DNA from: a virus
IMG/VR virus record: IMGVR_UViG_3300045988_150584
Reading direction: 5' to 3' (one strand)
DNA: 64,000 bases
Part shown: piece by piece, positions 414 to 48,574 of the stretch
Layout of the letters: each line of letters begins with the position of its first letter
Numbering within the stretch: the stretch's first letter is position 1
Program-made: the position numbers and the translations under genes
The notes under the pieces: generated by a model
Databases searched by the model: none
What the model saw: the letters and a program-made list of their open reading frames with translations, nothing else
What the model was told of the DNA's origin: nothing

Positions 414-427
414 ATATTTTAATTGCA

Positions 428-490
428 GAGCGCCTTGTTTGGCTGATCAGTTAAAAGTTGATTCCATAAATAAGGTTGCTGTATGCGCTC
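428..490 (-). repeat. ACAGCAAY hairpin element (copy S9) upstream of tRNA-Leu(CAA)
   Basis: Sense (minus) strand reads GAGCGC-at-ACAGCAAC-...-GCGCTC. The stem differs in sequence from other copies but stays complementary. Confidence 0.5.
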
Positions 491-494
491 TTCG

Positions 495-1387: not shown

Positions 1388-1470
1388 GAGACGCAACATC
1401 ATTTACACTTGATAGATAAAATCCAGCTCATCTTTTATGTATAGAAATTTGAAGTTGCTGTAAGCGTCTC
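1388..1470 (-). repeat. ACAGCAAY hairpin element (copy S10) upstream of tRNA-Asn
   Basis: Sense strand reads GAGACGC-tt-ACAGCAAC-(~60 nt)-GCGTCTC. Confidence 0.5.
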
Positions 1471-1482
1471 TAACAACGGCAA

Positions 1483-1540
1483 GGCACTTATGTACTTTCT
1501 ATTATCCGCAAGAAAATCCTCCAAAGTTGCTGTGTGTGCC
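1483..1540 (-). repeat. ACAGCAAY hairpin element (copy S11)
   Basis: Sense strand reads GGCAC-ac-ACAGCAAC-...-GTGCC, immediately downstream of tRNA-Pro. Confidence 0.45.
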
Positions 1541-1546
1541 TTTTTA

Positions 1547-2381: not shown

Positions 2382-2387
2382 ATGTAA

Positions 2388-3232: not shown

Positions 3233-3248
3233 AAAACACACCCCGTAA

Positions 3249-4051: not shown

Positions 4052-4072
4052 TAGGAATTAGCAAAATAATTT
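4052..4072 (+). promoter_or_regulatory. class-B motif copy (no plus-strand gene downstream)
   Basis: TAGGAATTAGCAAAATAATTT, sharing a 20-nt identity with the copy at 61207-61228. Confidence 0.4.
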
Positions 4073-4081
4073 CAGATTTTT

Positions 4082-4157
4082 TGGTGGCTGAGGCTGGGCT
4101 TGAACCAGCGTCTCCGCTTTATGGGAGCGGCAAGAAAACCAGCTTCTCCACTCAGCC
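4082..4157 (-). tRNA. tRNA with CAU anticodon and C33 in the anticodon loop
   Basis: Acceptor GGCTGAG/CTCAGCC, D-arm GAGA..TCTT, anticodon arm CCGCT-CCCATAA-AGCGG (C where U33 is nearly universal), T-arm GCTGG-TTCAAGC-CCAGC. CCA is encoded. Confidence 0.75.
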
Positions 4158-4189: not shown

Positions 4190-4474
4190 TTACTCTCGAA
4201 TACTTCTTAAAAGTTCTGCTCCGGACTTAAATACGACATTCTGGAACTCTGGAACAACAATGCTTTCTTTCGTTACCGGATGAAGAGCAGGATGTGACTT
4301 GTACTTTTTCACATCAAATGTTCCAAACCCATAAATCGAAACGCGATCTCCATTTCTAAGAGCATTCGCAATTTCATCAAAAATATCGTCAACGATATCC
4401 TTGACCATGTACTTCTTATACGCCTTATTATTCTGAGCAAGCGTATTTACTAAATCTGCTTTATTGATATTCAT
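4190..4474 (-). CDS. HU/IHF-family DNA-binding protein
   Basis: 94 aa, MNINKADLV...SIYGFGTFDVKKYK..VVFKSG. The length is typical and the GFGxF arm motif is present. Confidence 0.9.
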   Translation of the reverse strand: MNINKADLVNTLAQNNKAYKKYMVKDIVDDIFDEIANALRNGDRVSIYGFGTFDVKKYKSHPALHPVTKESIVVPEFQNVVFKSGAELLRSIRE

Positions 4475-10136: not shown

Positions 10137-11303
10137 CTATGATCTGTACATCTTTCTAATTCTAATGATATTCTTTCCGAGCAATTCGGCAGCGCGAGTT
10201 ACTTCTTCGACCGTCGTATTCCATCCAAACGAAACTCTAATTGTAGATTTTGCCTGCGTATAATTCCGACCAATAGCTCTCAAAACATGACTCGGCTCTA
10301 AACTGCCAGCAGAGCAAGCAGAAGCAGCAGAAATACATACACCGTCCGAATTCATCAGATGAAGAATAGCCTCAGATTCAACATCATTTATGGTGATACT
10401 CAAAATACTGCTTAGCTGATACGATTTCTCATAATGCTCATTGATTCTAATTCCCTCATCGCATACAGAGTACAGCTCTTTCAAAAATGCTTCCCGTAGC
10501 ACTAATGCGTCACGAGAAAATTCGTTTGGCGTTGAAAACTTTGCTGCAGTACCAAGCGCCACAATACCCGCTACATTCTCTGTGCCAGCTCTCACACCAA
10601 ATTCTTGCCCACCACCATATATAATCGGTTCAATATGCTTTTTAAGGCCACCGCGAACATACAAAGCTCCAACACCAATTGGCGCACCGAACTTATGCCC
10701 ACTAATAGACAGCATATCAACGCCGCAAGAATTCACATTGACATCAATATGACCAACTGCCTGCACTGCATCCGTATGAAATACCGCGCCATAATAATTA
10801 CAAAGATCTGCAATGCTTTTTACATCCTGAATAACACCAATCTCGTTATTCACCCACATGACAGACACAAGACCCACATTGTCTTCTTTGAGATATTTTT
10901 CAAGCTCAAATAAATCAACCTGTCCATATGTATCAACAGAAAGCGGCTTTACAACTATTCCAAGGCGCGTCAGTAAATTGCGTTGGTTCAAAATGGCATG
11001 ATGCTCAATTTTACTAACAAGCATTACATTATGGTTCGTTGCATTTAGAGCAGATGCCATTCCGATAAGCGCCAGATTATCCGACTCAGATCCGCCAGAA
11101 GTAAAAATAATCTCATCTGGGCTATCCGCGCCAATTAGCTTAGACACATCATAACGAGCTTGATAAATGGCTTGATGTGCTTGCCGGCCAGCAGAATGAA
11201 GAGAACTTGGATTTCCGCATTTCCCAACACCATACCAATAGTCCAGAGCTTCACGCACAGGCGGTCGAACGCTCGTTGTCGCTGCATGATCTAAATAAAT
11301 CAT
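10137..11303 (-). CDS. cysteine desulfurase (NifS/IscS-type, class V aminotransferase)
   Basis: MIYLDHAATT.., SGGSESDNLAL, SISGHKFGAPIGVGALYV (PLP-binding lysine), and C-terminal ..SAASACSAGS (catalytic Cys loop). The start follows AAGGAG. Confidence 0.85.
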   Translation of the reverse strand: MIYLDHAATTSVRPPVREALDYWYGVGKCGNPSSLHSAGRQAHQAIYQARYDVSKLIGADSPDEIIFTSGGSESDNLALIGMASALNATNHNVMLVSKIEHHAILNQRNLLTRLGIVVKPLSVDTYGQVDLFELEKYLKEDNVGLVSVMWVNNEIGVIQDVKSIADLCNYYGAVFHTDAVQAVGHIDVNVNSCGVDMLSISGHKFGAPIGVGALYVRGGLKKHIEPIIYGGGQEFGVRAGTENVAGIVALGTAAKFSTPNEFSRDALVLREAFLKELYSVCDEGIRINEHYEKSYQLSSILSITINDVESEAILHLMNSDGVCISAASACSAGSLEPSHVLRAIGRNYTQAKSTIRVSFGWNTTVEEVTRAAELLGKNIIRIRKMYRS

Positions 11304-11383
11304 CTTTTTCTCCTTTATGGGTGGACGGGCTTTGCCCGTCCGCGCCATGCTATCATAAAAATTACACACTAACATTTGAATTG

Positions 11384-16674: not shown

Positions 16675-16745
16675 TTTCAGCCTCCAAAGTCATCCGATTT
16701 TCCGCGTTTTCGACCGAGTTGGTCGAAAATAAAGAAATTTACATG

Positions 16746-16778
16746 GCAAACATACCGTTGTTCAACGCATTTCTTGTG
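16746..16778. promoter_or_regulatory. third copy of the 33-bp operator-like element (CGTTG-TT-CAACG)
   Basis: ggcaaacataccgttgttcaacgcatttcttg aligns with the 6275 and 6342 repeats. Confidence 0.5.
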
Positions 16779-26117: not shown

Positions 26118-26350
26118 GCGCTTTTACACTGAGAAATAAAATCGAAGAGTCAAAATCAATGTATTTAGAGCGTCGCGGAAAGCTTGATTGGCAGTGGACG
26201 GACGAGGGACTTCCTTATGCAATCATGGACTATCATAGCTGCGTCGGTTCGGTTTTGGATTTTACGGAAGATGACTGGCAGGCCGCTGAGGAAAATGGAT
26301 TTTCTCGTGATGAAGTCATTGCTTTATGCGAAGATCGTGAGGATGAATAA
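26114..26350 (+). CDS. hypothetical acidic protein
   Basis: 78 aa, overlapping the upstream stop. Confidence 0.5.
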   Translation: MSAFTLRNKIEESKSMYLERRGKLDWQWTDEGLPYAIMDYHSCVGSVLDFTEDDWQAAEENGFSRDEVIALCEDREDE

Positions 26351-26587
26351 ATGACAGAAAAAGATATTGTGAATGTGCTGTATCGTGACGGATATCACGC
26401 TGCGGCAAAGCTGATCGAAAAGAAGTCTGAGACCATCGAAAGCAGAAAATCTCTGATGCTGTGGAAAGATGATTTTACCAGTGAAAACAAGTGGAAATCC
26501 CTTTGTGCGGCTCTTGATGTTCCGGAAGATACAGTCACGCTGGAGCTGAAATGCAATGTTGTTGCAGCATTTCCATATAAAAAATAA
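26351..26587 (+). CDS. hypothetical protein
   Basis: 78 aa. Confidence 0.5.
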   Translation: MTEKDIVNVLYRDGYHAAAKLIEKKSETIESRKSLMLWKDDFTSENKWKSLCAALDVPEDTVTLELKCNVVAAFPYKK

Positions 26588-26599
26588 TTTCAACGGCTG

Positions 26600-26634
26600 G
26601 TGTGCAAAGACGAAATTTTAGGGGTAGATATAAT
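26600..26634 (+). promoter_or_regulatory. class-A bipartite motif (copy 5, weaker first block)
   Basis: GTGTGCAAA-N14-GGTAGATATAAT. Confidence 0.6.
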
Positions 26635-26688
26635 AGAAAGCCCAAAACAATCATCACAACTACTTTCTACTTTAAGGAGGATTCAAAA

Positions 26689-27615
26689 ATGGCAGCAAAT
26701 GTCGAAACTATGTTTTATGTGCGTGAAAAGCCCTGGCACGGTCTGGGGGTTGAGGTTCAGGAGGCGTTGAATAGCGCTGATGCGCTGAAAATGGCTGGTC
26801 TTGATTGGGAGGTCAAGCAGAGAAACATTCAGGTCTGCGGCGGTGCGAAGATCGAGAATTATAAGGCGAATGTCCGTAGCACAGATGGTCGTGTGCTTGG
26901 AGTTGTCTCTGACCGCTATCAGATCGTGCAGAATAGGGACGCTTTTAGCTTTACCGATGAGCTGATCGGCGGCGATGTCCGCTATGAAACTGCTGGCAGC
27001 TTGCAGAATGGCAAGAAGATTTGGCTGCTGGCAAAGATGCCTGAGCGCGAGGTCGTTGGTGATAAAGTCGAGCCGTACCTTTGTTTCTCGAATACGCACG
27101 ACGGAAGCGGTTCTATCCGTGTCTGCATGACCCCGATTCGTGTTGTCTGCAATAACACTTTGAATCTTGCGCTGAATAGCGCGAAGCGTCAGTGGGCAAC
27201 AAAGCATGTCGGCAATATCGACGAGAAGATGCAGGAAGCGCGTATGTGTCTCCAGCTTGCGGATGCCTACATGGATGAGCTTGCTGTTTGCGCAGATCGT
27301 CTTGCAAATACGACAATCACCGATGAACAGCTTGATAAGCTGCTTGACGAGATGTTCCCTGTTGACGATGACGATACCGAGCGCAAGAAGAACAGCGTGA
27401 AAAAGGCAAAGGACGAGTTCATGATCTGCTATTTCCGTCCGGATATTATGAAGTTCCTTAATACCGGCTGGGGCGTTGTGAATGCTATGAGCGATATGAT
27501 TTCGCATTCTGCACCGCGCCGTCAGACTGGCAGTTACCGTGAAAACAACTGGAACAGAATCATGGATGGTCACAAGATGCTCGACCGCATGACAGAGCTT
27601 GTTTGCGCACGATAA
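26689..27615 (+). CDS. DUF932-family protein (phage/plasmid-like, TIGR03299 type)
   Basis: MAANVETMFYVREKPWHGLG.., DRYQIVQNRDAFSFTDELIG, CMTPIRVVCNNTL. Confidence 0.75.
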   Translation: MAANVETMFYVREKPWHGLGVEVQEALNSADALKMAGLDWEVKQRNIQVCGGAKIENYKANVRSTDGRVLGVVSDRYQIVQNRDAFSFTDELIGGDVRYETAGSLQNGKKIWLLAKMPEREVVGDKVEPYLCFSNTHDGSGSIRVCMTPIRVVCNNTLNLALNSAKRQWATKHVGNIDEKMQEARMCLQLADAYMDELAVCADRLANTTITDEQLDKLLDEMFPVDDDDTERKKNSVKKAKDEFMICYFRPDIMKFLNTGWGVVNAMSDMISHSAPRRQTGSYRENNWNRIMDGHKMLDRMTELVCAR

Positions 27616-39684: not shown

Positions 39685-40584
39685 ATGAGAAAGAATGGTT
39701 TTGTTGGTGCTATCGTTTTGGCGATCATCATTTTTGGCGGCGTGATTCTCGGTTTTAGCTGCACATCGCGTGTCCCTACCGGTTATGTTGGAGTCGTTTA
39801 TAATATGAACGGCGGCGTTGATGGTGAGGTTCTGAGTCAGGGCTGGCATCTTGTAGCGCCTACAAAGAAAGTAACCACCTATTCTATCGGTTTGGAGCAG
39901 TCCTACCTTACAAGCGAAGAAAAGGGCGATTCTCCGAACGATGAGAGCTTTTCCATTCCGACGTCCGATGGCAAGACTGTCCGTGTAAATCTTGAGTTCT
40001 CTTACAGATTTGACGAAGAGCGTGTTGCTGAAACATTTACGACTTTCAAGGGCAAGTCTGGCGAACAGATCAAGGATACATTTATCAAGCCTAAGATTAT
40101 CGCTTGGACACAGGAAGTCTCCGCCAATTACCCAGTCACGGATATCTTCGGTGACAAGCGCACGGAGATCAACGCCGAGTTGGACACCTATTTGCGCGAC
40201 AAGTTTGATAAGTATGGCATTATTATCGACACGGTAAACTTCACCGATATCAGCGTAGACGATGAAACCGCCGCCGCGATTCAGAAGAAGGTCACTGCGC
40301 AGCAGGAACTTGAACTGGCTAATATCGAAGCTCAGACTGCCAAGGTTCAGGCCGAAAAGGATCGTCAGGTTGCTGAGATCAACGCTGAGAAGCAGATCAT
40401 TGATGCAAATGCAAAGGCTGAGGTAACGCGCATCGAAGCGGAGGCAGAAGCTCAGGCGAACCGTGAGATTGCAGCATCCCTTACCCCGAATCTGATTGAG
40501 AAGATCAAGTACGAGCGCTGGGACGGTGAGCTTCCTACCGTATCTGGTTCTGGAGCAATCGTCAGCATTGACGGCGTTGACTGA
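39685..40584 (+). CDS. SPFH/band-7 (stomatin-prohibitin-like) membrane protein
   Basis: N-terminal TM segment, then GYVGVVYNMNGGVDGEVLSQGWHLVAP.., followed by an Ala/Glu-rich coiled coil. Confidence 0.8.
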   Translation: MRKNGFVGAIVLAIIIFGGVILGFSCTSRVPTGYVGVVYNMNGGVDGEVLSQGWHLVAPTKKVTTYSIGLEQSYLTSEEKGDSPNDESFSIPTSDGKTVRVNLEFSYRFDEERVAETFTTFKGKSGEQIKDTFIKPKIIAWTQEVSANYPVTDIFGDKRTEINAELDTYLRDKFDKYGIIIDTVNFTDISVDDETAAAIQKKVTAQQELELANIEAQTAKVQAEKDRQVAEINAEKQIIDANAKAEVTRIEAEAEAQANREIAASLTPNLIEKIKYERWDGELPTVSGSGAIVSIDGVD

Positions 40585-40894: not shown

Positions 40895-40950
40895 ACGACG
40901 CGAACAGCAATTTTCTTACATATATTTGGGTTATATCGTACATGCGTCGT
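40895..40950 (+). repeat. ACAGCAAT hairpin element (copy S1)
   Basis: ACGACGC-ga-ACAGCAAT-(32 nt)-GCGTCGT. Confidence 0.5.
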
Positions 40951-40978
40951 GTGAAATAAAACTTGGAGGAATGATGTC

Positions 40979-41158
40979 GTGAAGCTGAAGTTCAATGTTG
41001 GTGATCGTGTTTTTGATAAGAAGTACGGTCATGGTGTGGTTCAGAGAGTTGATGCTGGAAACAGCGAGTTCCCGTATCTTATCTTCTATGAAGATGGTAC
41101 GAAGATCTGGTATAAGGCAAAGGGTGTAACTCTTGCCCCTGCGGAACAGCAGGATTAA
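40979..41158 (+). CDS. small protein (59 aa, GTG start)
   Basis: GGAGG-N9-GTG. VKLKFNVGDRVFDKKYGHGVVQRV.. is SH3/Tudor-like. Below the track's size cutoff. Confidence 0.45.
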   Translation: MKLKFNVGDRVFDKKYGHGVVQRVDAGNSEFPYLIFYEDGTKIWYKAKGVTLAPAEQQD

Positions 41159-41170
41159 GTAAGTTAAAAA

Positions 41171-41223
41171 GACGCAAACAGCAATCTAATAAAATCAAAC
41201 TTGAAATTTGACAGGTAAGCGTC
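41171..41223 (+). repeat. ACAGCAAT hairpin element (copy S2) upstream of tRNA-Ser
   Basis: GACGC-aa-ACAGCAAT-(33 nt)-GCGTC. Confidence 0.5.
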
Positions 41224-41237
41224 TTGTGGTGTGATAT

Positions 41238-41328
41238 GGAGTAGTAATCCTAATTGGTAAGGAAGTAGTTTGCTAAACTACCAGTAATCGGGAACGATGT
41301 GCAGGTTCGAGTCCTGTCTACTCTGCCA
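41238..41328 (+). tRNA. tRNA-Ser(GCU)
   Basis: Acceptor GGAGTAG/CTACTCT, anticodon arm GTAGT-TTGCTAA-ACTAC, long variable arm, T-arm GCAGG-TTCGAGT-CCTGT. CCA is encoded. Confidence 0.85.
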
Positions 41329-41490
41329 ACAAAAGCAAGTAGACAAAGAGAAAGTCTGTTCGCAATCGAAGCCGGCAATCATTGATTATTTTGTCCGCTT
41401 TCTTCACGGTAACTGCATGGCAGTAGTGCGAATACAAAACAGATTGGGTTCTGTTGTATGGGAGTGTGGCCTATACCTTGCTTGATATAT

Positions 41491-41577
41491 GCTGATGTGA
41501 TGGAACTGGCATACATGGGGGACTTAAAATCCCCCGCCGATTGTGGATTATGGGTTCGACTCCCATCATCAGCACCA
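41491..41577 (+). tRNA. tRNA-Leu(UAA)
   Basis: Acceptor GCTGATG/CATCAGC, anticodon arm GGGGA-CTTAAAA-TCCCC, long variable arm, T-loop GGGTTCGACTCCC. CCA is encoded. Confidence 0.85.
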
Positions 41578-41659
41578 GCCGTTGTGATGATCGGCTTTCA
41601 TCTCCTTCTTTGTGTGACGGTGGGACAGACCACTACTGCCGTGTAAGTGCGGCATAAAT

Positions 41660-41771
41660 GAGAGCGTCTGGATGACAGCTTTAAGGTGTATCGAACGGCG
41701 GACACCTACAGCAATGTTCTTTAAGAAAACTGGAATTTTTCTGCTTACGGGTTCGATTCCCGTAGCTCTCA
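41660..41771 (+). ncRNA. tRNA-like RNA P3 (good acceptor and T-arm, no canonical D or anticodon arms)
   Basis: Acceptor GAGAGCG/AGCTCTC and T-arm ACGGG-TTCGATT-CCCGT. The interior contains hairpin AGGTGT..ACACCT followed by ACAGCAATGTT, plus two CTTTAAG heptamers. Confidence 0.45.
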
Positions 41772-41841
41772 AGAGCCGTTAAATAATCTTCTCGAACTGG
41801 TGAGCAATTCACAACTTCTCTGGGAAGATGTAATAAGAAAT

Positions 41842-41952
41842 GCAGAGGTAGCTCAGTCGGTAGAGCATCAGACAAAAAATGTGCTAAGCATTAGCGCTAA
41901 CAGCAATGTTAAAGGAATCCGAGTGTCGGAGGTTCAAGTCCTCCCCTCTGCG
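41842..41952 (+). ncRNA. tRNA gene P4 with a ~38-nt insertion in the anticodon loop (body Phe/Lys-like)
   Basis: - Perfect acceptor GCAGAGG/CCTCTGC.
- Canonical D-arm TAGCTCAGTCGGTAGAGC and T-arm GGAGG-TTCAAGT-CCTCC.
- Anticodon stem TCAGA/TCCGA encloses CAAAAAATGTGCTAAGCATTAGCGCTAACAGCAATGTTAAAGGAA. Confidence 0.6.
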
Positions 41953-41959
41953 TCTATAT

Positions 41960-42031
41960 TCGTGCGTAACATCTGCGAAAGTACACCGTGGATGCGATTG
42001 GTATATGTCAGTTCGATTCTGACCGCACGAG
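41960..42031 (+). ncRNA. tRNA-like RNA P7 (normal length, non-canonical core)
   Basis: Acceptor TCGTGCG/CGCACGA and T-arm GTCAG-TTCGATT-CTGAC. I could not fold the 40-nt interior into D and anticodon arms. Confidence 0.4.
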
Positions 42032-42110
42032 CCTATGCGGTGTCTCACTGAAATAAATGTGGTGTGGGTGAGTAAAATCAGGGCTGTTGAAGAACTTGTA
42101 TCGTAGCGCT

Positions 42111-42180
42111 GCGGTGCATGGAACGTCTGGCAGAAGCAGTTTTACAATACAGAGCTGTTCGAGTCAGCTCCACCGCCCCA
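42111..42180 (+). ncRNA. tRNA-like RNA P8 (short, non-canonical core)
   Basis: Acceptor GCGGTGC/CCACCGC (6 of 7 paired), T-arm AGCTG-TTCGAGT-CAGCT, CCA encoded. No 5-7-5 anticodon arm was found. Confidence 0.4.
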
Positions 42181-42183
42181 AAT

Positions 42184-42298
42184 GCCAGGGTAGCTCAATC
42201 GGTAGAGCGCGTAATAACGCGACTTGTTAAGCCGCTTGCAGCAAATTTCTTTTGGTCTGTTAAACCCGTGGTTGCAGGTTCGATTCCTGCCCCTGGCT
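42184..42298 (+). ncRNA. tRNA gene P5 (Asn-like CTGTTAA loop) with a ~44-nt insertion between the D-arm and the anticodon region
   Basis: Acceptor GCCAGGG/CCCTGGC, D-arm TAGCTCAATCGGTAGAGC, T-arm GCAGG-TTCGATT-CCTGC. The insertion carries GCAGCAAAT, and only a 3-bp GGT/ACC stem flanks CTGTTAA. Confidence 0.5.
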
Positions 42299-42384
42299 CA
42301 ACGTGAATGACTGCTTAAACCATTCTAAACCGACACGACAAAAGGGCAGAAATGGTGACAGCTCGGAGAGACGAGCATCTATAT

Positions 42385-42502
42385 ACGGCAGTGGTGAAGC
42401 GGTAACACAGCAGCCATACAAATGCGAAAAGTGGATTTTCGCTAACAGCTATTTCACAATCCAAGCTGCCAATCGTAGGTTCGATTCCTACCTGCCGTTC
42501 CA
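42385..42502 (+). ncRNA. tRNA gene P6 with a ~43-nt insertion in the anticodon loop
   Basis: Perfect acceptor ACGGCAG/CTGCCGT. Anticodon stem GCAGC/GCTGC encloses CATACAAATGCGAAAAGTGGATTTTCGCTAACAGCTATTTCACAATCCAA. T-arm GTAGG-TTCGATT-CCTAC. CCA is encoded. Confidence 0.6.
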
Positions 42503-42562
42503 CGGGTATAGAGTTGACTTTTCCGTTCAAACAGCCCCTTATAAAGTTGGTAGTAACGGTAT

Positions 42563-42626
42563 GAGACGCACACAGCAATTTGTAAGTAAAGTATTTAGCC
42601 TGATAAGCGGATTTCTTTTGCGTCTC
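42563..42626 (+). repeat. ACAGCAAT hairpin element (copy S8) closing the RNA cluster
   Basis: GAGACGC-ac-ACAGCAAT-(40 nt)-GCGTCTC. Confidence 0.5.
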
Positions 42627-42691
42627 GCCCCTCCTTTAAGACACAGACAGCATCGAATGTGAAATGGTGTCTTGAAGGCTATTTCAAACAA

Positions 42692-42728: not shown

Positions 42729-44273
42729 ATGAATGGTTTTATGTCTGCTATGAAAAGCACTTTGAACGATGAGTTCAATGTTTCTGTTACCGAAAACGGT
42801 GCTGTTGGCTATCGTACTACCGGCAAGGAACTATTGGATCTCAACTTTGCCGTTGCATCTCTTCGTAAGGCATCTCCGAGCGATATTGCAAACCGCTTCG
42901 TCAGAGCGTTTTTCGAGGATAAGATTACGGCAATGAAATGGCTGTTCTTTGCGCGTGATGTTCGTGGTGGTCTTGGCGAGCGTCGTTTGTTCCGCATCGT
43001 GTTTCAGCGTATGGCGGAGGAAAATCCGGAATACATCATTCCGCTGATTTCCCTTGTGCCTGAGTATGGACGCTATGACGATTTGTGGTGTTTGCTCGAT
43101 ACAAAGCTTGCACCTAATGTGCTGAACATCATTGCGCAGCAGCTCCGCGATGACATTCAGAATTTGAGCGATGGCAATAGTATTTCTCTTCTCGCAAAGT
43201 GGCTTCCGTCTGCGAATGCTCATTCCGCTGACGCAAAGCGTTATGCTAAGCAGATCTACAAGTTTATGGGCATTTCTGAGCGCGACTACCGTAAGGTGCT
43301 GTCCAAGCTGCGTTCTAAGCTGGATATCGTGGAGAAGAAAATGTCCGAAAAGCGTTGGGATGAGATTGCGTATGAAGCTGTCCCGTCTCGTGCAAATCTG
43401 ATTTACAACTCCGCATTCCTTCGTAACGACGAAGATCGCCGCCGCGATTTCCTGTCCCGTTTGGAAAAGGGCGAAACGAAAATCAATGCGTCTACGCTTT
43501 TCCCGCATGACATTGTTGCAAAGTATAGCGATGGCTGGCGTGGCCTGAAGCCTACGGATAAAACACTGGAAGCTCTTTGGAACGCACTTCCCGATACCGT
43601 AAACGGATGCGGCAATACCATCGTCGTTGCGGATGGCAGCGGCAGTATGACCGTGAATGTCGGTGGCAGCAATGTTACCGCACTGGCTGTTGCAAATGCA
43701 CTTGCGATTTATTTCGCAGAGCGTTCCTCTGGTCAGTTCAAGGACAATTACATTACATTTTCTGAGCATCCTCAGCTCGTCGATTTGAGTAAGGGCAAGA
43801 ATCTCCGCGAGAAGATTCAGATTGCGCTTAAACACAGCGAGGTAGCAAACACAAATATCGAAGCGGTGTTTGACCTTATCTTGACTACGGCAAAGAAAAA
43901 CAACATGGGACAGAGCGATCTTCCTGCAAATATCCTTATTATCTCCGATATGGAGTTTGACTACTGCGCAACATCGAATGGTGGAAGCAGATATAATCGT
44001 GGTCGCGTTGATTCTCGTCTGTTTGACAAGATTGCAAAGCGCTATGAGGATGCTGGGTATAAACTGCCAAGGCTCGTGTTCTGGAACGTGAATAGCCGCA
44101 CGAATACCATCCCTATTAAGGAAAACGAGATGGGAGTTGCGCTTGTAAGCGGTTTTAGTCCGAACATCGCAAAGATGGTGATGAGTGGTCAAACTGATCC
44201 GTATGAGTGTCTGCTTGAAACGCTGAACTCTGATCGCTATAAGCCTATCGGTGACGCTCTGGAAAATCAGTAA
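42729..44273 (+). CDS. DUF2828-family protein with a vWA/MIDAS-like domain
   Basis: N-terminus VTENGAVGYRTTGKELLDLNF.., GRYDDLW, and VVADGSGSM (DxSxS MIDAS-like). 514 aa. Family recalled from memory of plant and phage DUF2828 proteins. Confidence 0.65.
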   Translation: MNGFMSAMKSTLNDEFNVSVTENGAVGYRTTGKELLDLNFAVASLRKASPSDIANRFVRAFFEDKITAMKWLFFARDVRGGLGERRLFRIVFQRMAEENPEYIIPLISLVPEYGRYDDLWCLLDTKLAPNVLNIIAQQLRDDIQNLSDGNSISLLAKWLPSANAHSADAKRYAKQIYKFMGISERDYRKVLSKLRSKLDIVEKKMSEKRWDEIAYEAVPSRANLIYNSAFLRNDEDRRRDFLSRLEKGETKINASTLFPHDIVAKYSDGWRGLKPTDKTLEALWNALPDTVNGCGNTIVVADGSGSMTVNVGGSNVTALAVANALAIYFAERSSGQFKDNYITFSEHPQLVDLSKGKNLREKIQIALKHSEVANTNIEAVFDLILTTAKKNNMGQSDLPANILIISDMEFDYCATSNGGSRYNRGRVDSRLFDKIAKRYEDAGYKLPRLVFWNVNSRTNTIPIKENEMGVALVSGFSPNIAKMVMSGQTDPYECLLETLNSDRYKPIGDALENQ

Positions 44274-44656: not shown

Positions 44657-44967
44657 TGCCAGATGTTGTTATGACGAATCATAGTGTGAAGCGAACAAAA
44701 GAAAGAATTGGACTAAGCAAGAAAATCGCAGATAAGAACGCGCAGAGAGCGCTTGAATACGGTGTTACGCACTCTGAGGCAAAAGGTGGCTTATGTCGGT
44801 ATCTTGATAAACTGTATCTGTCGAATGGTAATGCAAATAATGTTCGCGTTTATCACAGATATGTATATCTCTTTCGTGGGAACACGCTTTTGACAATCAT
44901 TCCATTACCAAACAAATTCTATGCTCTGGCGGACAAACTTCAAAAGCAGAAAGGCGAAATAGAATGA
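44656..44967 (+). CDS. hypothetical protein
   Basis: 103 aa, with a start/stop overlap. Confidence 0.5.
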   Translation: MPDVVMTNHSVKRTKERIGLSKKIADKNAQRALEYGVTHSEAKGGLCRYLDKLYLSNGNANNVRVYHRYVYLFRGNTLLTIIPLPNKFYALADKLQKQKGEIE

Positions 44968-45920
44968 GAATTGTAAAAACACATACTGGAAAAATTTATG
45001 TTGATAAGGATAAGAAACTGGAATTTTTAACGGTTGGCGACTATGGCAAGGAAAACAATATTAAAGCAAGTTTTCTTGGTTTGAACAAAGAAATCAACGG
45101 TGTTCAACATCATACGGTTGACCTGGCGGATAAGTGGGTTGCTACTATCAGCACTCAGAAAGGTTGTCCGATGAATTGCCAGTTTTGTGATTGCCCGAAG
45201 TATGGATTTCACGGAAATGTATCTCGTGAGGAACTGGCTTATGAAATTGAGACAATTCTTGCAAACGAACGAGTAACACATACTAATCGTTTCAATGTTC
45301 ACTTTGCTCGCATGGGTGAGCCTACATTCAACGATGCCGTTCTTCCGTTTGCTGAATTTGATTTGAAGCCGCTGGTTAAGCGGTTTATTACGGCAGATAC
45401 AATTCATCCTGTTGTTTCAACTATGCTTCCGAAAGCAAATGCCAATTTGAAGTCATTCATCATGGAATGGTGTCGCATTAAGAACAGTGTGTACAGTGGA
45501 GAAGCTGGTCTGCAATTTAGCATCAATTCGACGAATCAGGCGCAGCGTAATGAACAGTTTAACGGAAAGAGCTTATCCTTATCAGAAATTTCAAGTCTCG
45601 CATCTAAGCTTCCTACGCCGGTCGGTAGAAAATACACATTGAATTTTGCGGTAACGGCTGACACGATTTTGGATGCGGTGGAGCTTGGGAAGCTGTTCGA
45701 TAAGGAAAAGTTTATCGTAAAAATTACGCCGATTCACCAGACAAATGCAGCCATTAAGAATGGATTTGATGTGACCACGGAATATACTGACTACGATGTT
45801 TACCGCAAGTTTGAAGATCCACTTGTTGCTGCTGGATGGGATGTCATTGTGTTCGTACCGAGCGAGGAAGAAGATAGCGACCGTATTACTTGCGGGAATG
45901 CCTTAATTTCAGATAAGTGA
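44964..45920 (+). CDS. RlmN/Cfr-like radical SAM RNA methyltransferase
   Basis: STQKGCPMNCQFCDCP (CxxxCxxC), FARMGEPTFN (MGMGEP-like), and C-terminal DRITCGNAL (second catalytic Cys, CGQL-like). Confidence 0.65.
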   Translation: MRIVKTHTGKIYVDKDKKLEFLTVGDYGKENNIKASFLGLNKEINGVQHHTVDLADKWVATISTQKGCPMNCQFCDCPKYGFHGNVSREELAYEIETILANERVTHTNRFNVHFARMGEPTFNDAVLPFAEFDLKPLVKRFITADTIHPVVSTMLPKANANLKSFIMEWCRIKNSVYSGEAGLQFSINSTNQAQRNEQFNGKSLSLSEISSLASKLPTPVGRKYTLNFAVTADTILDAVELGKLFDKEKFIVKITPIHQTNAAIKNGFDVTTEYTDYDVYRKFEDPLVAAGWDVIVFVPSEEEDSDRITCGNALISDK

Positions 45921-45928
45921 GGTGCAGG

Positions 45929-46336
45929 ATGTACAAGCACTACGAAAACATTACAAGAGAAGTTTTGGATACAATAAAGGTTGGAGATTTGGTCAGAGTA
46001 AACGATTGGACGAGTCCAATGCTTGTGAAAGCGGTATCTAAGAATTTCTTTGTGATGACTTGTAAGAAAGGCGAAGATACATATTACTCTGTGTGTTCAA
46101 AACTGCCGTGGGACGGTATTCGTCACAATGCTATGGTTGGCGGCATGTTCCATTGTGGATGTGATGATTGGATTTTCGGGACGCCGCTTGGAATTAGAGA
46201 CGAAAACATCTACCAGTTTAATGATCCGGAGTTAAATAGGTTGTATCTACAAGAGTTTGAGGATGGTAAAACGCACATTTCTGAACGAAATGGAGCTGCT
46301 ATCTATGATTTGTATGTAGAGCGCTGTGATGACTAA
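45929..46336 (+). CDS. hypothetical protein
   Basis: MYKHYENITREV.. after GAGGTG. Confidence 0.5.
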   Translation: MYKHYENITREVLDTIKVGDLVRVNDWTSPMLVKAVSKNFFVMTCKKGEDTYYSVCSKLPWDGIRHNAMVGGMFHCGCDDWIFGTPLGIRDENIYQFNDPELNRLYLQEFEDGKTHISERNGAAIYDLYVERCDD

Positions 46337-46350
46337 GGAGGTTATGCAAG

Positions 46351-46626
46351 ATGGTTGTAAGTCTACGCGAAATAGTGATGTCGCATGAAAAGATTTATTC
46401 GCTGCTCTATTCTCCGTGTAGAATCGAGAGTGACCCGATTGAAAAGCAGATTGTAGAAATTAGTACGAAGTCTCTGCGTTGGTCGGATGATGGGACGATG
46501 TTTGTCTATGTCTGGGGTTGGCCTGGGCCGGACTTTAACAGATATTCTGCAAAGACATACGGAAAAGGCTGGGCATTTACAAAACAGGAAATCATTGATG
46601 CCTGGGAGAGCGAGAATAGGAAGTAG
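46351..46626 (+). CDS. hypothetical protein
   Basis: AAGGAGG RBS. 91 aa. The stop TAG lies inside a class-B motif. Confidence 0.5.
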   Translation: MVVSLREIVMSHEKIYSLLYSPCRIESDPIEKQIVEISTKSLRWSDDGTMFVYVWGWPGPDFNRYSAKTYGKGWAFTKQEIIDAWESENRK

Positions 46627-46637
46627 CAAATCAATCC
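46616..46637 (+). promoter_or_regulatory. class-B motif copy overlapping a stop codon
   Basis: ATAGGAAGTAGCAAATCAATCC. Confidence 0.4.
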
Positions 46638-46729
46638 TATGTACAGTTCATTTCTTAAAATAATTCACTGAAAAACACAGAGTTTTTCGTTGCAAGCAAG
46701 CGCAACTAATGATTGGAGTGTAATTTGCC

Positions 46730-47110
46730 ATGCCCCTTAAAACACCTGAATCACAGCGACGAATGGCTGAAATGCAGCACATGAGAGACTGTGGATTTAC
46801 TTTGCAGCAAATCGGAGATCAATATGGAATAAGCCGAGAGCGAGTTCGTCAGATTGTAAATAACATTCACAAGAAAAAGCGTACTTGTGGTGTGAAAAAT
46901 ATCTGCTATCCAAATTTCAAAAAATGGGCGCTTGATAATGGGTATTCCACTTTAACAAAGCTTGCTAATGATATGGATATGTGTTCATCTCTTGTTAGAA
47001 GTCTTCTGATCAAGGGTGAACCCCCTACAAAGCGCTCCATTAGGAAGATAACTGAATTCACTGGAATGTCTGCGGATGAAGTATTTTATCTACCGGATGT
47101 TGCAGCGTAA
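46730..47110 (+). CDS. sigma70 region-4-type HTH protein
   Basis: GFTLQQIGDQYGISRERVRQIVNNI. Confidence 0.6.
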   Translation: MPLKTPESQRRMAEMQHMRDCGFTLQQIGDQYGISRERVRQIVNNIHKKKRTCGVKNICYPNFKKWALDNGYSTLTKLANDMDMCSSLVRSLLIKGEPPTKRSIRKITEFTGMSADEVFYLPDVAA

Positions 47111-47116
47111 AGATTG

Positions 47117-47151
47117 GTAAGCAAATTGTTATTACGATGGGTAGTTATAAC
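47117..47151 (+). promoter_or_regulatory. class-A bipartite motif (copy 11)
   Basis: GTAAGCAAA-N14-GGTAGTTATAAC. Confidence 0.65.
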
Positions 47152-47168
47152 GAAAGGGGTGTGGTTGC

Positions 47169-47480
47169 ATGAATGGTCTTGGTGAGGCTGTGATGATAAC
47201 ATGGGCTGAATATGGTCTAAAAATCGAAAATACGAGTGAAACAGCAGAATCACTTGTGATTTATGTTTCTGTCCCAGAGCATAGTTACAAAAGAAATGCC
47301 AGAGGCTCTGAAATGGCTGCTATGGATCTTGCAAAACGATTTAAGACCGTAATGACGGAGATGGGCGTTAAGCGTTTGACCGTTAAAGCCCGCGTTCGTG
47401 CTGGTGAATACTGGACGAAAGAAATGGCTGATAGCGCCAATATCGAGATGCGAAAAAACATCTTTGGAAGTCAATATTAA
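47169..47480 (+). CDS. hypothetical protein
   Basis: 103 aa. Confidence 0.5.
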   Translation: MNGLGEAVMITWAEYGLKIENTSETAESLVIYVSVPEHSYKRNARGSEMAAMDLAKRFKTVMTEMGVKRLTVKARVRAGEYWTKEMADSANIEMRKNIFGSQY

Positions 47481-47494
47481 GGAGGGTGTAATAG

Positions 47495-48574
47495 GTGATT
47501 AAGAAGGTTGATCGGAAAAATCGGTTTGTAGCAATGTTTAATCCTACAACTGGCTTCTATGCTCGTAGTGGTGTGATTGATGAGAATGGGCATGACACCG
47601 GCGTAGATCCGTTTATGACAGCATTCCCAGAGCTGATTGATGTCGGTGTGATGGGTCATTGTGTCCACGGAGCAAGCGGTCTTTGCTTTAAGTCTGGCGT
47701 TCAGTGTTATCAGAACGGACTAAAGACAAAAGAACCAAATATGACGCTTGAAAATTTCAAACGCATTGTTGATGAATGTAGGGGTAAAACATTCCAGCTC
47801 GCGCTTGGTGGTCGTGGTGATGTTGACCAGCACGAAAATTTTGCTGAGATTTTGCAGTATTGCAGGGAAAACAATATCGTGCCGAATTTCACTTCTTCAG
47901 GGCTTGGCTTTACAGATGAGATTGTAGATCTGTGTAAAAGATACTGTGGTGCAGTAGCAATCTCCTGGTATCGCCAGAAGCATACATACCGTGCGATTCA
48001 GATGCTTTTGGATGCTGGCGTAAAAACGAACATTCATTATGTTCTTGGAAACAATTCCATTGAAGAAGCAATTATGCGGCTAAAAAATAATGGTTTTCCT
48101 GCTGGCATTAACGCAGTGATTTTCCTTCTTCACAAACCCGTTGGACTCGGCAGCGAAGAGAATGTTTTGCAGATGGATAACCCGCTCGTAAGACAGTTCT
48201 TTGAGATTGTGGATATGCAGAAATTCAATTTCAAAATTGGCTTCGATTCATGTTCTATTCCAGCCGTTTTGAATCTGACTCACAATATCGACCACGATAG
48301 TATTGATACTTGCGAGGGCGGCAGATGGAGCATGTATATCACAAGCGACATGAAAGCTTTGCCCTGTAGTTTCGATAATCAAGAGCTGCGTTGGGCATTT
48401 GATATTAGCAATTCCAGTATCGAAGAAGCTTGGAATAGTCCGCAGTTTGAAAGATTTAGAAGTCATTTCAGAAATTCTTGCCCGAATTGTCAGTGCCAAC
48501 ACGCTTGTATGGGCGGTTGTCCGATTCGTCCGCAAGTAGTTTTGTGCGATAGGGCGGAAAAGGAGCTGTATTAA
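47495..48574 (+). CDS. radical SAM/SPASM-like protein with an atypical N-terminal Cys pattern
   Basis: C-terminal CPNCQCQHACMGGCP is SPASM-like. The N-terminal GHCVHGASGLCFKSGVQCY is not the canonical CxxxCxxC. GTG start after AAGGAGGG. Confidence 0.5.
   Translation: MIKKVDRKNRFVAMFNPTTGFYARSGVIDENGHDTGVDPFMTAFPELIDVGVMGHCVHGASGLCFKSGVQCYQNGLKTKEPNMTLENFKRIVDECRGKTFQLALGGRGDVDQHENFAEILQYCRENNIVPNFTSSGLGFTDEIVDLCKRYCGAVAISWYRQKHTYRAIQMLLDAGVKTNIHYVLGNNSIEEAIMRLKNNGFPAGINAVIFLLHKPVGLGSEENVLQMDNPLVRQFFEIVDMQKFNFKIGFDSCSIPAVLNLTHNIDHDSIDTCEGGRWSMYITSDMKALPCSFDNQELRWAFDISNSSIEEAWNSPQFERFRSHFRNSCPNCQCQHACMGGCPIRPQVVLCDRAEKELY

What the first reader, a model, noticed from the sequence alone, without database searches (positions are those of the whole stretch)
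40895..42626. ACAGCAAY hairpin family with covarying stems in both tRNA arrays
Six spacer elements share the architecture [5-7-nt stem strand]-NN-ACAGCAA(T/C)-[32-60 nt]-[complementary stem strand].
- Three are on the minus strand: 428-490, 1388-1470 and 1483-1540.
- Three are on the plus strand: 40895-40950, 41171-41223 and 42563-42626.
- The stems differ in sequence but stay complementary: ACGACGC/GCGTCGT, GACGC/GCGTC, GAGACGC/GCGTCTC (twice), GAGCGC/GCGCTC and GGCAC/GTGCC.
- Every copy is in the sense orientation of its tRNA array, mostly just 5' of a tRNA.
- The same core occurs inside the interrupted tRNA-like genes and in the 3.3-3.9 kb ORF-free region.

This pattern suggests a structured RNA signal, such as a processing site, ribozyme, protein-binding hairpin or miniature mobile element, and I cannot match it to any RNA family I recognise.
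Basis: seen in the sequence. Interest (0 to 1): 0.75.

Follow-up and report, generated by a model that had tools for sequence, protein, structure and literature searches.

The report
Phage Y-RNA-like hairpins for Ro60-like protein
The six hairpins are real members of a widespread, undescribed family of small phage RNAs (a 7-bp closing stem plus an ACAGCAAY bulge) that always lies next to a Ro60-like RNA-binding protein gene, so they are most likely that protein's "Y RNA" partners.

Summary
All six hairpins exist, and each closes with a 7-bp stem. A seventh copy lies at 42638-42673. Four tRNA-like genes carry the same module in place of the anticodon loop.

A covariance model built on the family finds 106 copies in related viral contigs. 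In these, 99.8% of stem positions are paired and all 7 pairs show compensatory changes. Mismatches are G·U and almost never A·C, so the stem is selected as RNA on the tRNA-sense strand. No Rfam family matches.

The gene just 3' of the plus-strand array (42729-44273, DUF2828) folds like Ro60. The stem+ACAGCAA element lies beside this gene, on the same strand, in every DUF2828 phage examined: Listeria, Enterococcus, Staphylococcus, Mycobacterium, Felix O1-like E. coli and Fusobacterium phages. It is absent from two control tRNA arrays.

In other phages the same wrapper encloses YrlA-like tRNA mimics or whole tRNAs.

Best reading (about 0.7): modular Y-RNA-like RNAs. The helix plus ACAGCAAY bulge would be the Ro handle, replacing the canonical GNCGAA motif, and it would display tRNA-derived modules. 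Binding itself is inferred, not shown. I class it as a new variant of a known kind.

The parts
40895..40950 (+). Mini element A. Stem ACGACGC (40895-40901) pairs with GCGTCGT (40944-40950). NN = GA. Core ACAGCAAT at 40904-40911. Inner hairpin ATATA/TATAT with a 7-nt loop UUUGGGU.
   Evidence: 49.1 bits, E 4e-9; closing stem present in MFE and centroid.
41169..41226 (+). Mini element B. Stem AAGACGC pairs with GCGTCTT. Core at 41178-41185. Inner hairpin UCAAA/UUUGA with an anticodon-like loop CUUGAAA. It lies 12 nt 5' of tRNA-Ser (41238).
   Evidence: (54.7 bits, E 2e-10).
41660..41771 (+). tRNA-like body x0 (acceptor stem GAGAGC/GCUCUC and a T arm). An internal hairpin GGUGU/ACACC is followed by U-ACAGCAAU (core 41708-41715).
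   Evidence: (z -2.9). Orthologues in L011, L031 and L078 keep the hairpin+core+T-arm arrangement.
41842..41953 (+). tRNA-like x1 (Rfam tRNA 52.5 bits, 111 nt). The anticodon loop is replaced by hairpin GUGCUAA-GCA-UUAGCGC (41881-41897) + UA + ACAGCAAU (41900-41907).
42184..42299 (+). tRNA-like x2 (Rfam tRNA 48.4 bits, 115 nt). Hairpin GCGACUU-GUU-AAGCCGC (42219-42235) + UU + degenerate core GCAGCAAA (42238-42245). The orthologue in L008 has a perfect stem and ACAGCAAU.
42385..42500 (+). tRNA-like x3 (Rfam tRNA 48.6 bits, 115 nt). Hairpin GCGAAAA-GUGGA-UUUUCGC (42424-42442) + UA + variant core ACAGCUAU (42445-42452).
   Evidence: The orthologue L063 +966 has ACAGCAAU.
42563..42626 (+). Mini element C. 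Stem GAGACGC pairs with GCGTCTC. Core at 42572-42579. It lies in the leader of the Ro60-like gene.
   Evidence: 46.4 bits; z -3.15. The positional orthologue in L011 has stem AGGGCGC/GCGCCCU.
42638..42673 (+). Newly found seventh mini element C2. Stem AAGACAC pairs with GTGTCTT. NN = AG. Variant core ACAGCATC at 42647-42654. The interior is only 12 nt. It ends 55 nt before the Ro60-like start codon.
   Evidence: 23.5 bits, E 0.0047; z -2.3.
42729..44273 (+). Ro60-like protein gene (DUF2828 + DUF7788/vWA, 514 aa): the inferred protein partner.
   Evidence: -: Pfam DUF2828 and DUF7788.
- PHROG 850 'RNA-binding protein', E 5e-141.
- AF2 model, then Foldseek; the top 11 PDB hits are all full-length Ro60/TROVE proteins, E 3e-8 to 1e-5.
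1481..1542 (-). Mini element D. Stem AAGGCAC pairs with GTGCCTT. Core at 1533-1526. It begins 5 nt after tRNA-Pro.
   Evidence: (46.2 bits).
1388..1470 (-). Mini element E. Stem GAGACGC pairs with GCGTCTC. Core at 1461-1454. Inner hairpin AGAUGA/UUAUCU. It ends 11 nt before tRNA-Asn.
   Evidence: (47.4 bits).
427..491 (-). Mini element F. Stem AGAGCGC pairs with GCGCTCT. Core at 482-475. Inner hairpin with loop CUUUUAA. It lies between two tRNA-Leu genes.
   Evidence: (44.9 bits).

Best explanation
These are phage Y-RNA-like small RNAs.

**Handle.** Each element has a constant handle: a 7-bp helix of consensus nAGRCRC/GYGYCUn formed by its 5' and 3' ends, with a single-stranded NN-ACAGCAAY on the 5' side of the internal loop and a G after the 3' strand.

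**Module.** The handle encloses an interchangeable interior:
- almost nothing;
- an anticodon-stem-loop-like hairpin;
- a YrlA-type permuted tRNA mimic;
- a whole tRNA.

The order can also be circularly permuted, giving a tRNA-like body whose anticodon loop is replaced by the handle.

**Biogenesis (inferred).** The RNAs are co-transcribed with the tRNA arrays. They are released because the flanking tRNAs are cut out by RNase P and 3' processing.

**Function (inferred).** The handle is the binding site for the phage's Ro60-like DUF2828 protein. It occupies the position of the GNCGAA/CGAA motif of canonical Y RNAs. The variable tRNA-derived module would tether or gate the Ro ring towards tRNA-handling partners.

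**Shown here:** family membership, RNA-level covariation, strand specificity, invariant linkage to the Ro60-like gene, and the Ro60 fold of that protein.

**Not shown:** transcription and RNA ends in this phage, physical binding, and the downstream effector.
For: 1. **The stem is real and acts at the RNA level.**
   - Model R1 finds 106 copies at E<=0.01 in 737 kb of related loci.
   - In 81 distinct sequences 99.8% of cells pair, and all 7 pairs show double changes.
   - There are 135 double-change cells against 34±7.8 in shuffles (0 of 500 reach the observed value). Sliding the partner gives only 27-56% paired.
   - In stems with one non-Watson-Crick pair, that pair is G·U 19 times and A·C once; controls give 8 and 8.
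2. **The neighbouring protein is Ro60-like.** The Foldseek top 11 hits are all Ro60/Rsr/phage Ro60, aligned over about 520-560 columns.
3. **Linkage to that gene.**
   - Elements lie on the same strand, usually within 0.5 kb of the DUF2828 gene, in loci found by protein homology alone: L011 and L013-17.
   - The same holds for Listeria LMLPA3 and Enterococcus VRE9_1, and for Staphylococcus BE22, Mycobacterium Lumos, E. coli REP6 and Fusobacterium phiKSUM, 4 of 4 tested.
   - A T4-like and a crAss-like tRNA array without the gene give no hit better than E about 1.
4. **Y-RNA architecture.**
   - The same wrapper encloses Rfam YrlA hits in L035, L020, L043 and Lumos.
   - Published Y-like RNAs have a 5'-3' stem flanking a loop with CGAA at nt 8-11, which is needed for phage Ro60 binding (PMC12135203). 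They also carry GNCGAAN0-1G near the 5' end and are encoded within 4 kb of Ro on the same strand (PMC4201824).
5. **The handle behaves as a structural module.** The permuted form (hairpin+NN+core inside tRNA-like bodies with a T arm) recurs 41 times, against 0-6 for control motifs.
6. **Transcription in a related phage.** In Listeria phage CKA15, three highly transcribed non-coding regions lie within 2 kb upstream of the DUF2828 gene (PMC12282133). In the 98%-identical LMLPA3, the three elements follow a TTGACA-N17-TATCAT promoter.
Against: - No binding, RNA-end or expression data exist for this phage or for these exact elements.
- The canonical Ro motif (GNCGAA/CGAA) is absent, and the Rfam YrlA model does not hit any window copy.
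- Three of the seven mini copies sit about 40 kb from the Ro-like gene, in the other tRNA array.
- Elements, Ro-like gene and tRNA arrays all co-occur, so linkage to the arrays, or to another conserved neighbour such as the metallophosphoesterase exonuclease, cannot be fully separated from linkage to Ro. The negative control is only two arrays.
- Thermodynamic z-scores of single copies are modest, -0.7 to -3.2.
- The CKA15 region for which coordinates are published corresponds to a ROOL-like RNA, not to these elements.
Confidence: 0.7

Rival explanations
1. Leader-trailer processing stems. The helix plus ACAGCAAY marks cleavage sites for a host or phage nuclease that dices the polycistronic tRNA transcripts, for example the conserved metallophosphoesterase 'exonuclease'. 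Empty copies would be relics whose tRNA has decayed.
For: - The elements are packed between tRNAs with 4-14-nt spacers.
- Some wrappers enclose complete tRNAs: L035 4668-4789 contains a 67.5-bit tRNA.
- A homologous exonuclease gene lies beside elements in the window and in Staphylococcus BE22.
Against: - Most phage tRNAs in the same arrays have no wrapper.
- Mini copies are conserved as such across phages whose Ro-like proteins are 60-70% identical.
- In Staphylococcus BE22, Lumos and Listeria phages the elements stand in tandem next to the Ro-like gene with no tRNA inside or between them.
- The handle also occurs inside tRNA-like bodies, where cleavage would destroy them.
Confidence: 0.12
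2. Free-standing decoys of tRNA anticodon arms. These would soak up host anticodon nucleases or modification enzymes without any Ro-like protein; the conserved core would be a stabilising or recognition tag for another factor.
For: - 19 of 70 short elements carry a hairpin of at least 4 bp with a 7-nt YUNNNRN loop, against 4.7±2.1 in shuffles.
- The 'anticodons' recur: UGG, UUU, GUU, GCU, UGA.
Against: - Three quarters of short copies lack such a hairpin.
- It does not explain the invariant core plus helix, or the adjacency to the Ro-like gene.
- It is compatible with the main explanation as the role of the variable module, rather than being a true alternative.
Confidence: 0.08
3. DNA-level element: a miniature inverted-repeat mobile element, or cassette boundaries that shuffle tRNA genes.
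For: The elements are multi-copy, have inverted termini, and enclose variable cargo that includes whole tRNAs.
Against: - Copies in one genome have different termini that covary pairwise.
- G·U is tolerated but A·C is not, which is strand-specific and points to RNA.
- Every copy in the two window arrays and every covariance-model hit in loci holding a DUF2828 gene has the orientation of those genes.
- Positional orthologues persist across distant phages.
- No transposase or integron integrase was seen beside them.
Confidence: 0.03
4. A small self-cleaving ribozyme, or a promoter for the phage's YonO/RdRP-like RNA polymerase (6437-9133).
For: - There is a conserved 8-nt core next to a helix.
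- The window encodes a PF05183-type polymerase.
Against: - Only 7 bp and about 9 nt are conserved, and the interior varies from 12 to over 110 nt with no shared core.
- No known ribozyme family matches.
- The element occurs in Listeria, Staphylococcus, Mycobacterium and Felix O1-like phages, downstream of ordinary sigma-A promoters and inside tRNA-like genes.
- The downstream pairing partner covaries, which a promoter does not need.
Confidence: 0.02

Closest known systems
Bacterial/phage Y RNAs of the YrlA/YrlB type (Rfam RF02553; Chen et al. 2014, PMC4201824) and the Yrl1/Yrl2 RNAs of Thermus phage phiLo (PMC12135203)
   Same: - Small RNAs encoded beside a Ro60-type gene on the same strand.
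- The 5' and 3' ends pair into a terminal stem.
- A short conserved single-stranded motif follows the 5' strand of that stem.
- Optional tRNA-like module (T arm, closed acceptor hairpin, D arm), plus short forms without it, as in YrlB.
- In four phages the wrapper described here literally encloses sub-threshold Rfam YrlA hits.
   Different: - The core is ACAGCAAY, not GNCGAAN0-1G/CGAA. The nearest alignment is ACGGCGAAU against ACAGC-AAU.
- The terminal helix has its own partly conserved sequence (nAGRCRC).
- The Rfam model starts downstream of the core and misses all window copies.
- The partner protein is the DUF2828 family, with no Pfam TROVE hit; its Ro60 likeness is seen only by fold.
- There are many copies per genome (7 mini plus 4 tRNA-like here), dispersed through tRNA arrays.
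- Non-permuted forms exist in which the handle replaces a tRNA anticodon loop.
tRNA (RF00005) with an insertion in the anticodon loop
   Same: x1-x3 score 48-52 bits as tRNA, with acceptor, D and T arms.
   Different: - A 38-45-nt insert replaces the anticodon loop.
- The best 'spliced' loops lack U33 or need a 4-bp stem.
- The insert is the conserved handle, not a group I or bulge-helix-bulge intron.
ROOL/GOLLD large phage ncRNAs found next to tRNAs
   Same: Same genomic neighbourhood. The window has a ROOL at 3288-3895, and Listeria phage LMLPA3 has a ROOL-like RNA 0.6 kb upstream of its elements.
   Different: Unrelated in size, sequence and structure. The core is not part of ROOL; only a one-mismatch match is present.

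Membership tests
Y RNA / YrlA-like (Ro60 partner RNAs) | Encoded close to a Ro60 orthologue on the same strand | tested here: met
   - In the window, elements A, B, C, C2 and x0-x3 lie 55-1830 nt 5' of the Ro60-like gene, on the + strand.
- The same arrangement holds in all DUF2828 loci examined.
- Elements D-F are about 40 kb away.
Y RNA / YrlA-like (Ro60 partner RNAs) | Terminal stem formed by the 5' and 3' ends, flanking a large internal loop | tested here: met
   A 7-bp covarying stem, present in the MFE or centroid fold of all seven copies.
Y RNA / YrlA-like (Ro60 partner RNAs) | Conserved Ro-binding motif GNCGAAN0-1G / CGAA (GGUCCGA in animals) on the 5' strand | tested here: not met
   The conserved motif at that position is ACAGCAAY; CAGCAA is invariant in 81 sequences. 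It is similar to the canonical motif but not the same.
Y RNA / YrlA-like (Ro60 partner RNAs) | Match to the Rfam RF02553 covariance model | tested here: not met
   No hit over any of the seven mini copies at E<=10. Weak hits (20-26 bits) fall on tRNA sequence. Wrapped relatives in other phages score 32-50 bits, against a gathering threshold of 69.
Y RNA / YrlA-like (Ro60 partner RNAs) | Physically bound by the Ro60 protein | not testable with these tools
   Needs EMSA or RIP. Only the genomic association and the Ro60 fold of the neighbouring protein are shown.
tRNA (for x0-x3) | Cloverleaf with a 7-nt anticodon loop (U33, purine 37), directly or after removal of a recognisable intron | tested here: not met
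   - Rfam tRNA scores are 48-52 bits, but the genes are 111-115 nt long.
- ARAGORN must invoke non-canonical intron positions 30-34.
- The residual loops of x3 and L063 have A at position 33.
Small self-cleaving ribozymes (hammerhead, twister, pistol, hatchet, HDV-like) | Conserved multi-helix catalytic core, or a match to the family model | tested here: not met
   No Rfam hit. Interior sequence and length are not conserved. Cleavage itself was not testable.
Intrinsic terminator / sigma-70 promoter | GC-rich hairpin with a short loop and a U tract; or -35/-10 hexamers | tested here: not met
   None of the predicted sites coincides with an element. The loops are 12-70 nt and there is no U tract.
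MITE / inverted-repeat mobile element | Near-identical terminal inverted repeats among copies, either orientation, target-site duplication | tested here: not met
   The termini differ and covary. Orientation is always sense. Mismatches are biased to G·U. Target-site duplications were not examined systematically.

The most novel reading that the evidence does not exclude
A modular 'bait-display' system.

- One universal Ro-handle (the 7-bp helix plus ACAGCAAY) would let a phage Ro60-like ring carry a library of tRNA-derived modules: anticodon stem-loops of particular isoacceptors (UGG, UUU, GUU, GCU, UGA), YrlA-type mimics, whole tRNAs, and tRNA bodies with the handle in the anticodon loop.
- The RNP might work with the co-conserved metallophosphoesterase exonuclease, as a phage counterpart of the Ro-Y RNA-PNPase machine.
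- It would capture, inhibit or repair the damage of tRNA-targeting host defences.
- This would explain why a Felix O1-like Ro60-like gene (Bas63 gp130) scores as a counter-defence factor.
Probability: 0.2. Interest if true: 0.85.

Novelty: new variant of a known kind. Interest (0 to 1): 0.68.

Why it matters
DUF2828 Ro60-like genes occur in at least 711 GenBank phage records. These include model and applied phages: Listeria P100/A511, Felix O1-like, Staphylococcus, Enterococcus, Campylobacter and mycobacteriophages.

Two recent studies suspected that such proteins have Y-RNA partners but could not name them:
- Phage CKA15 (PMC12282133).
- Phage Bas63, whose gp130 counters the ppl defence (PMC11482910).

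A defined 7-bp helix plus ACAGCAAY signature, with a working covariance model, names concrete candidate RNAs in all these phages. It shows that they are modular and multi-copy. It also reinterprets odd 'interrupted', 'pseudo' or 131-nt tRNA annotations as Ro-handle chimeras.

This makes the Ro-RNA interaction, and its role in translation rescue or counter-defence, directly testable in tractable systems.

Tried and rejected
- **Rfam.** The gathering threshold, and E<=10 over both arrays, gave nothing over the elements.
- **DNA similarity to GenBank phages.** Only tRNA-level hits were found.
- **HDV-like/theta, hatchet, pistol and twister ideas.** Dropped: no model hit and no conserved interior.
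- **Retron-like a1/a2 plus branching G (AGC).** Dropped: no reverse transcriptase turned up among the neighbouring proteins I scanned, the interiors are unstructured, and the same wrapper surrounds tRNAs.
- **Integron attC.** Dropped: no R''/R' cores.
- **Promoter of the YonO/RdRP-like polymerase.** Dropped: the element occurs downstream of sigma-A promoters (Listeria phage) and inside tRNA-like genes.
- **GNRA-tetraloop hairpin (ACA-GCAA-UGU).** It forms only in x0 and x1, not generally.
- **Interrupted tRNAs as spliced tRNAs.** ARAGORN's intron models are non-canonical.
- **Pooled mismatch-type analysis on stems with 5-6 Watson-Crick pairs.** Uninformative because chance partners dominate; it became informative when restricted to 6/7 stems.
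- **Relaxed regex scan (one core mismatch, 6-bp stem).** Too noisy; replaced by the covariance model.
- **Covariance-model hit at 16729-16778.** At E 0.11 and without the core, it is judged spurious.
- **PDB sequence search with the protein.** Found nothing; only the fold search did.
- **Literature.** No function is reported for DUF2828, and a search for the ACAGCAA core together with 'Y RNA' listed no paper describing it.
Full report
**Setting.** The window is a phage contig, IMG/VR UViG_3300045988_167762 (100% match).
- A minus-strand array (1-4157) holds 15 tRNAs, a tmRNA and a ROOL RNA (RF03087, 400 bits).
- A plus-strand array (about 40.9-42.7 kb) holds two normal tRNAs and three 111-115-nt 'tRNA' hits.
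- A strong sigma-70-type promoter (TTGACA-17-TG-TATACT, 4051-4023, minus strand) heads the first array.

**Observation check.**
- ACAGCAAY occurs 12 times against 5.07 expected; 1 of 100 shuffles reaches 12.
- Eight of the 12 lie in the two arrays in sense orientation, and one in antisense.
- Read carefully, every stem is 7 bp: ACGACGC, AAGACGC, GAGACGC twice, AAGGCAC and AGAGCGC. The 3' strand is followed by G.
- The '3.3-3.9 kb ORF-free region' is the ROOL RNA. It holds only a one-mismatch core.
- No Rfam family matches any hairpin, even at E<=10.
- None of the hairpins coincides with a predicted promoter or terminator.

**The family is large.**
- An exact-pattern scan of IMG/VR for GAGACGCNNACAGCAAY returned many loci. 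In them, 57 of 133 matches have GCGTCTC within 110 nt downstream, where chance would give well under 1%.
- Without fixing the stem sequence, 91 of 341 unique ACAGCAAY sites have a perfect 7-nt partner, against 3 of 243 for permuted control motifs.
- I aligned 31 diverse short copies (A2) and built covariance model R1.
- In the window, R1 recovers the six copies at 45-55 bits. It adds a seventh at 42638-42673: AAGACAC-AG-ACAGCATC-12 nt-GTGTCTT, 23.5 bits, E 0.0047.
- In 737 kb of other loci, R1 finds 106 copies at E<=0.01.

**Covariation.**
- In the 81 distinct sequences, 99.8% of stem cells are paired and all seven pairs show changes on both sides.
- There are 135 double-change cells against 34±7.8 in shuffles (0 of 500 reach the observed value). 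Sliding the partner by 1-3 columns gives only 27-56% paired.
- Caveat: this alignment was fitted to the model, so the pair counts lean towards it. The independent enrichment test does not depend on it.
- Where a stem has a single non-Watson-Crick pair, it is G·U 19 times and A·C once; controls give 8 and 8. The helix is therefore selected in RNA of the tRNA-sense strand.
- Consensus: W-[R-A-G-R-C-R-C]-(U/A)(A/U)-A-C-A-G-C-A-A-Y-U-rich ... [G-Y-G-Y-C-U-Y]-G.

**The key anatomical finding: the stem plus core is a wrapper around variable cargo**. The cargo can be:
- 12-60 nt of A/U-rich sequence, as in the window copies;
- a hairpin with a 7-nt anticodon-like loop, present in 19 of 70 short copies against 4.7±2.1 in shuffles;
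- an anticodon arm plus T arm plus an extra hairpin;
- a complete tRNA (L035 4668-4789 encloses a 67.5-bit tRNA);
- a YrlA-type permuted tRNA mimic.

Every sub-threshold Rfam YrlA hit in L035, L020, L043 and mycobacteriophage Lumos sits inside such a wrapper.

**A circularly permuted form also exists.**
- The window's 'interrupted tRNAs' (x0-x3) have a local hairpin whose 3' strand (UUAGCGC, UUUUCGC, and so on) is followed by NN-ACAGCAAY. This module takes the place of the anticodon loop.
- The arrangement (hairpin + NN + core, with a T arm within 70 nt) recurs 41 times in the loci, against 0-6 for control motifs. It is found in several divergent phages.
- The connectivity changes but the geometry does not. 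This argues for a folded RNA module, and against a processing site, promoter or DNA repeat.

**The protein partner.**
- The ORF just 3' of the plus-strand array (42729-44273) is DUF2828+DUF7788/vWA, in PHROG 850 'RNA-binding protein'.
- It has no PDB match by sequence.
- An AlphaFold2 model (pLDDT 70.8) gives Foldseek hits whose top 11 are all full-length Ro60 proteins, with E from 3e-8 to 1e-5. They are Thermus phage phiLo Ro60, Xenopus and human Ro60, and D. radiodurans Rsr.
- Published work agrees: HHpred matches the Listeria phage orthologue to Rsr (PMC12282133), Bas63 gp130 is structurally similar to Ro60 (PMC11482910), and GenBank annotators call the mycobacteriophage orthologues 'Ro-like RNA binding protein'.

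**Linkage between element and gene.**

| Locus or phage | Where the elements lie relative to the DUF2828 gene (same strand) |
|---|---|
| L011 (68% identity), found by protein only | Two copies 35-170 nt upstream |
| L013-17 (40% identity), found by protein only | Two copies with variant cores UCAGCAAU and ACAGCAAA |
| Listeria LMLPA3 | Three tandem copies between a TTGACA-N17-TATCAT promoter and the gene |
| Enterococcus VRE9_1 | One copy 42 nt upstream, plus a YrlA-like copy with the identical stem |
| Staphylococcus BE22 | Three tandem copies starting 17 nt after the stop codon, E down to 5e-10 |
| Mycobacteriophage Lumos | Mini, YrlA-like, mini, in the gap after the gene, then a terminator |
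| Felix O1-like REP6 | Three or four copies in the tRNA array after the gene, one annotated as a 131-nt 'tRNA-Thr' |
| Fusobacterium phiKSUM | One copy 32 nt upstream |

Two control tRNA arrays from phages without the gene nearby (T4-like PG7, crAss-like cr106_1) give nothing better than E about 1. That is a small control.

**Comparison with known Y RNAs.**
- Chen et al. 2014 (PMC4201824) define bacterial and phage YrlA/YrlB by three features: a GNCGAAN0-1G motif near the 5' end, a tRNA-like domain, and location within 4 kb of Ro on the same strand.
- The phiLo study (PMC12135203) describes a 5'-3' stem flanking a loop with CGAA at nt 8-11, each base of which matters for binding.
- The present elements share the architecture and the position of the motif. 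The motif itself is ACAGCAAY; compare the Rfam consensus ACGGCGAAU.
- The helix is itself partly conserved, the Rfam model does not reach the motif, and the protein is the DUF2828 branch.
- I therefore file them as working like Y RNAs. They are a new variant rather than members of RF02553.

**Mechanism.**
- Shown: an RNA-level helix, an invariant single-stranded core, modular cargo, the permuted form, and obligate neighbourhood with a Ro60-fold protein.
- Inferred: co-transcription with tRNAs and release through flanking tRNA processing (spacers are 4-14 nt). Also inferred are binding of the handle by the Ro-like ring and use of the tRNA-derived module as tether, gate or bait.
- Element C/C2 lies in the leader of the Ro-like mRNA, so it could also autoregulate. 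That is speculation.

**Rivals.** Processing stems (0.12), Ro-independent anticodon-arm decoys (0.08), a mobile element (0.03), and a ribozyme or promoter (0.02) are set out with their tests in the Rival explanations section.

**Novelty and interest.**
- The kind of RNA (a Y RNA next to Ro) is known.
- New, as far as Rfam 15 and the searchable literature show, are the signature, its universality across DUF2828 phages, the multi-copy mini forms inside tRNA arrays, and the tRNA chimeras.
- Two recent papers explicitly left the RNA partner undefined. I score interest at 0.68.

Noticed in passing
window 3288-3895 (-); L139 6470-7021: The window's ORF-free block is a ROOL RNA (400 bits). In Listeria phage LMLPA3, L139 6470-7021 scores as ROOL at 89 bits (E 8e-17), just under the gathering threshold. 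By 98%-identity mapping, this corresponds to positions 26,236-26,727 of phage CKA15, which PMC12282133 reports as that phage's most highly transcribed, unexplained non-coding region. That RNA is therefore probably a ROOL homologue.
   Followed up: partly
window 6437-9133 (-): An 898-aa ORF hits Pfam PF05183 (eukaryotic-type RdRP, E 7e-15) and PHROG 8308 (E 3e-255). It is probably a YonO- or crAss-like single-subunit RNA polymerase. Orthologues at 74-99% identity lie next to the same tRNA array in L055, L092, L095 and L117.
   Followed up: partly
window 4471-5709 (-); L141 5774-6952: A metallophosphoesterase 'exonuclease' (PHROG 284) abuts tRNA array 1. It is homologous (28% identity, E 8e-36) to the exonuclease directly following the three elements in Staphylococcus phage BE22. 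Homologues at about 35% identity are near elements in L026, L033, L096, L119 and L127. It may be an effector of the RNP.
   Followed up: partly
window 1685-2100 (-): A phage-encoded tmRNA (Rfam 86.7 bits) with an unusual predicted tag peptide, AVDGCLNDALLVWVSICGNKESG, sits inside the tRNA array.
   Followed up: no
window 39685-40584 (+); L144 1759-2691: A Band 7/SPFH protein gene lies about 2 kb upstream of the Ro-like gene in the window. A 'band-7-like membrane protein' lies at a similar distance upstream of the Ro-like gene in mycobacteriophage Lumos. Homologues at about 81% identity are also in L057 and L078. This may be conserved synteny.
   Followed up: no
window 44964-48574 (+), 10137-11375 (-): Radical-SAM and SPASM-domain proteins lie just downstream of the Ro-like gene, and a class-V aminotransferase (cysteine-desulfurase-like) lies elsewhere in the window. 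They may be RNA or peptide modification functions. The radical-SAM neighbour recurs with the Ro-like gene in L062, L081 and L113.
   Followed up: no
L139 10848-16233 (Listeria phage LMLPA3): In the Listeria phage, the Ro-like gene and its three elements are followed within 3-8 kb by RtcB, a second RNA ligase, a 'tRNA amidotransferase' and phosphoesterases. This is an RNA-repair neighbourhood like the bacterial rsr-yrlBA-rtcBA operon. Separately, PMC12282133 detected the Ro-like protein in purified virions at 57% sequence coverage.
   Followed up: no
short elements in A3 (e.g. window 41195-41211, 40922-40938, 456-438): About a quarter of mini elements contain an anticodon-arm-like hairpin (7-nt loop YUNNNRN) with recurring 'anticodons' UGG, UUU, GUU, GCU and UGA. 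This is 19 of 70 against 4.7 expected.
   Followed up: partly
L143 6321-6451 (E. coli phage REP6) and relatives: Features annotated as a 131-nt 'tRNA-Thr', 'tRNA-OTHER' or 'tRNA-Pseudo' in Felix O1-like phages overlap ACAGCAA-wrapped YrlA-like elements. The region is conserved in more than 230 Felixounavirus records. These annotations are probably wrong.
   Followed up: partly
L013 4623-4698: A suppressor-type tRNA (anticodon CUA) lies immediately 3' of a wrapped element in the DUF2828 loci at 40% identity (L013-L017). This hints at stop-codon recoding in those phages.
   Followed up: no
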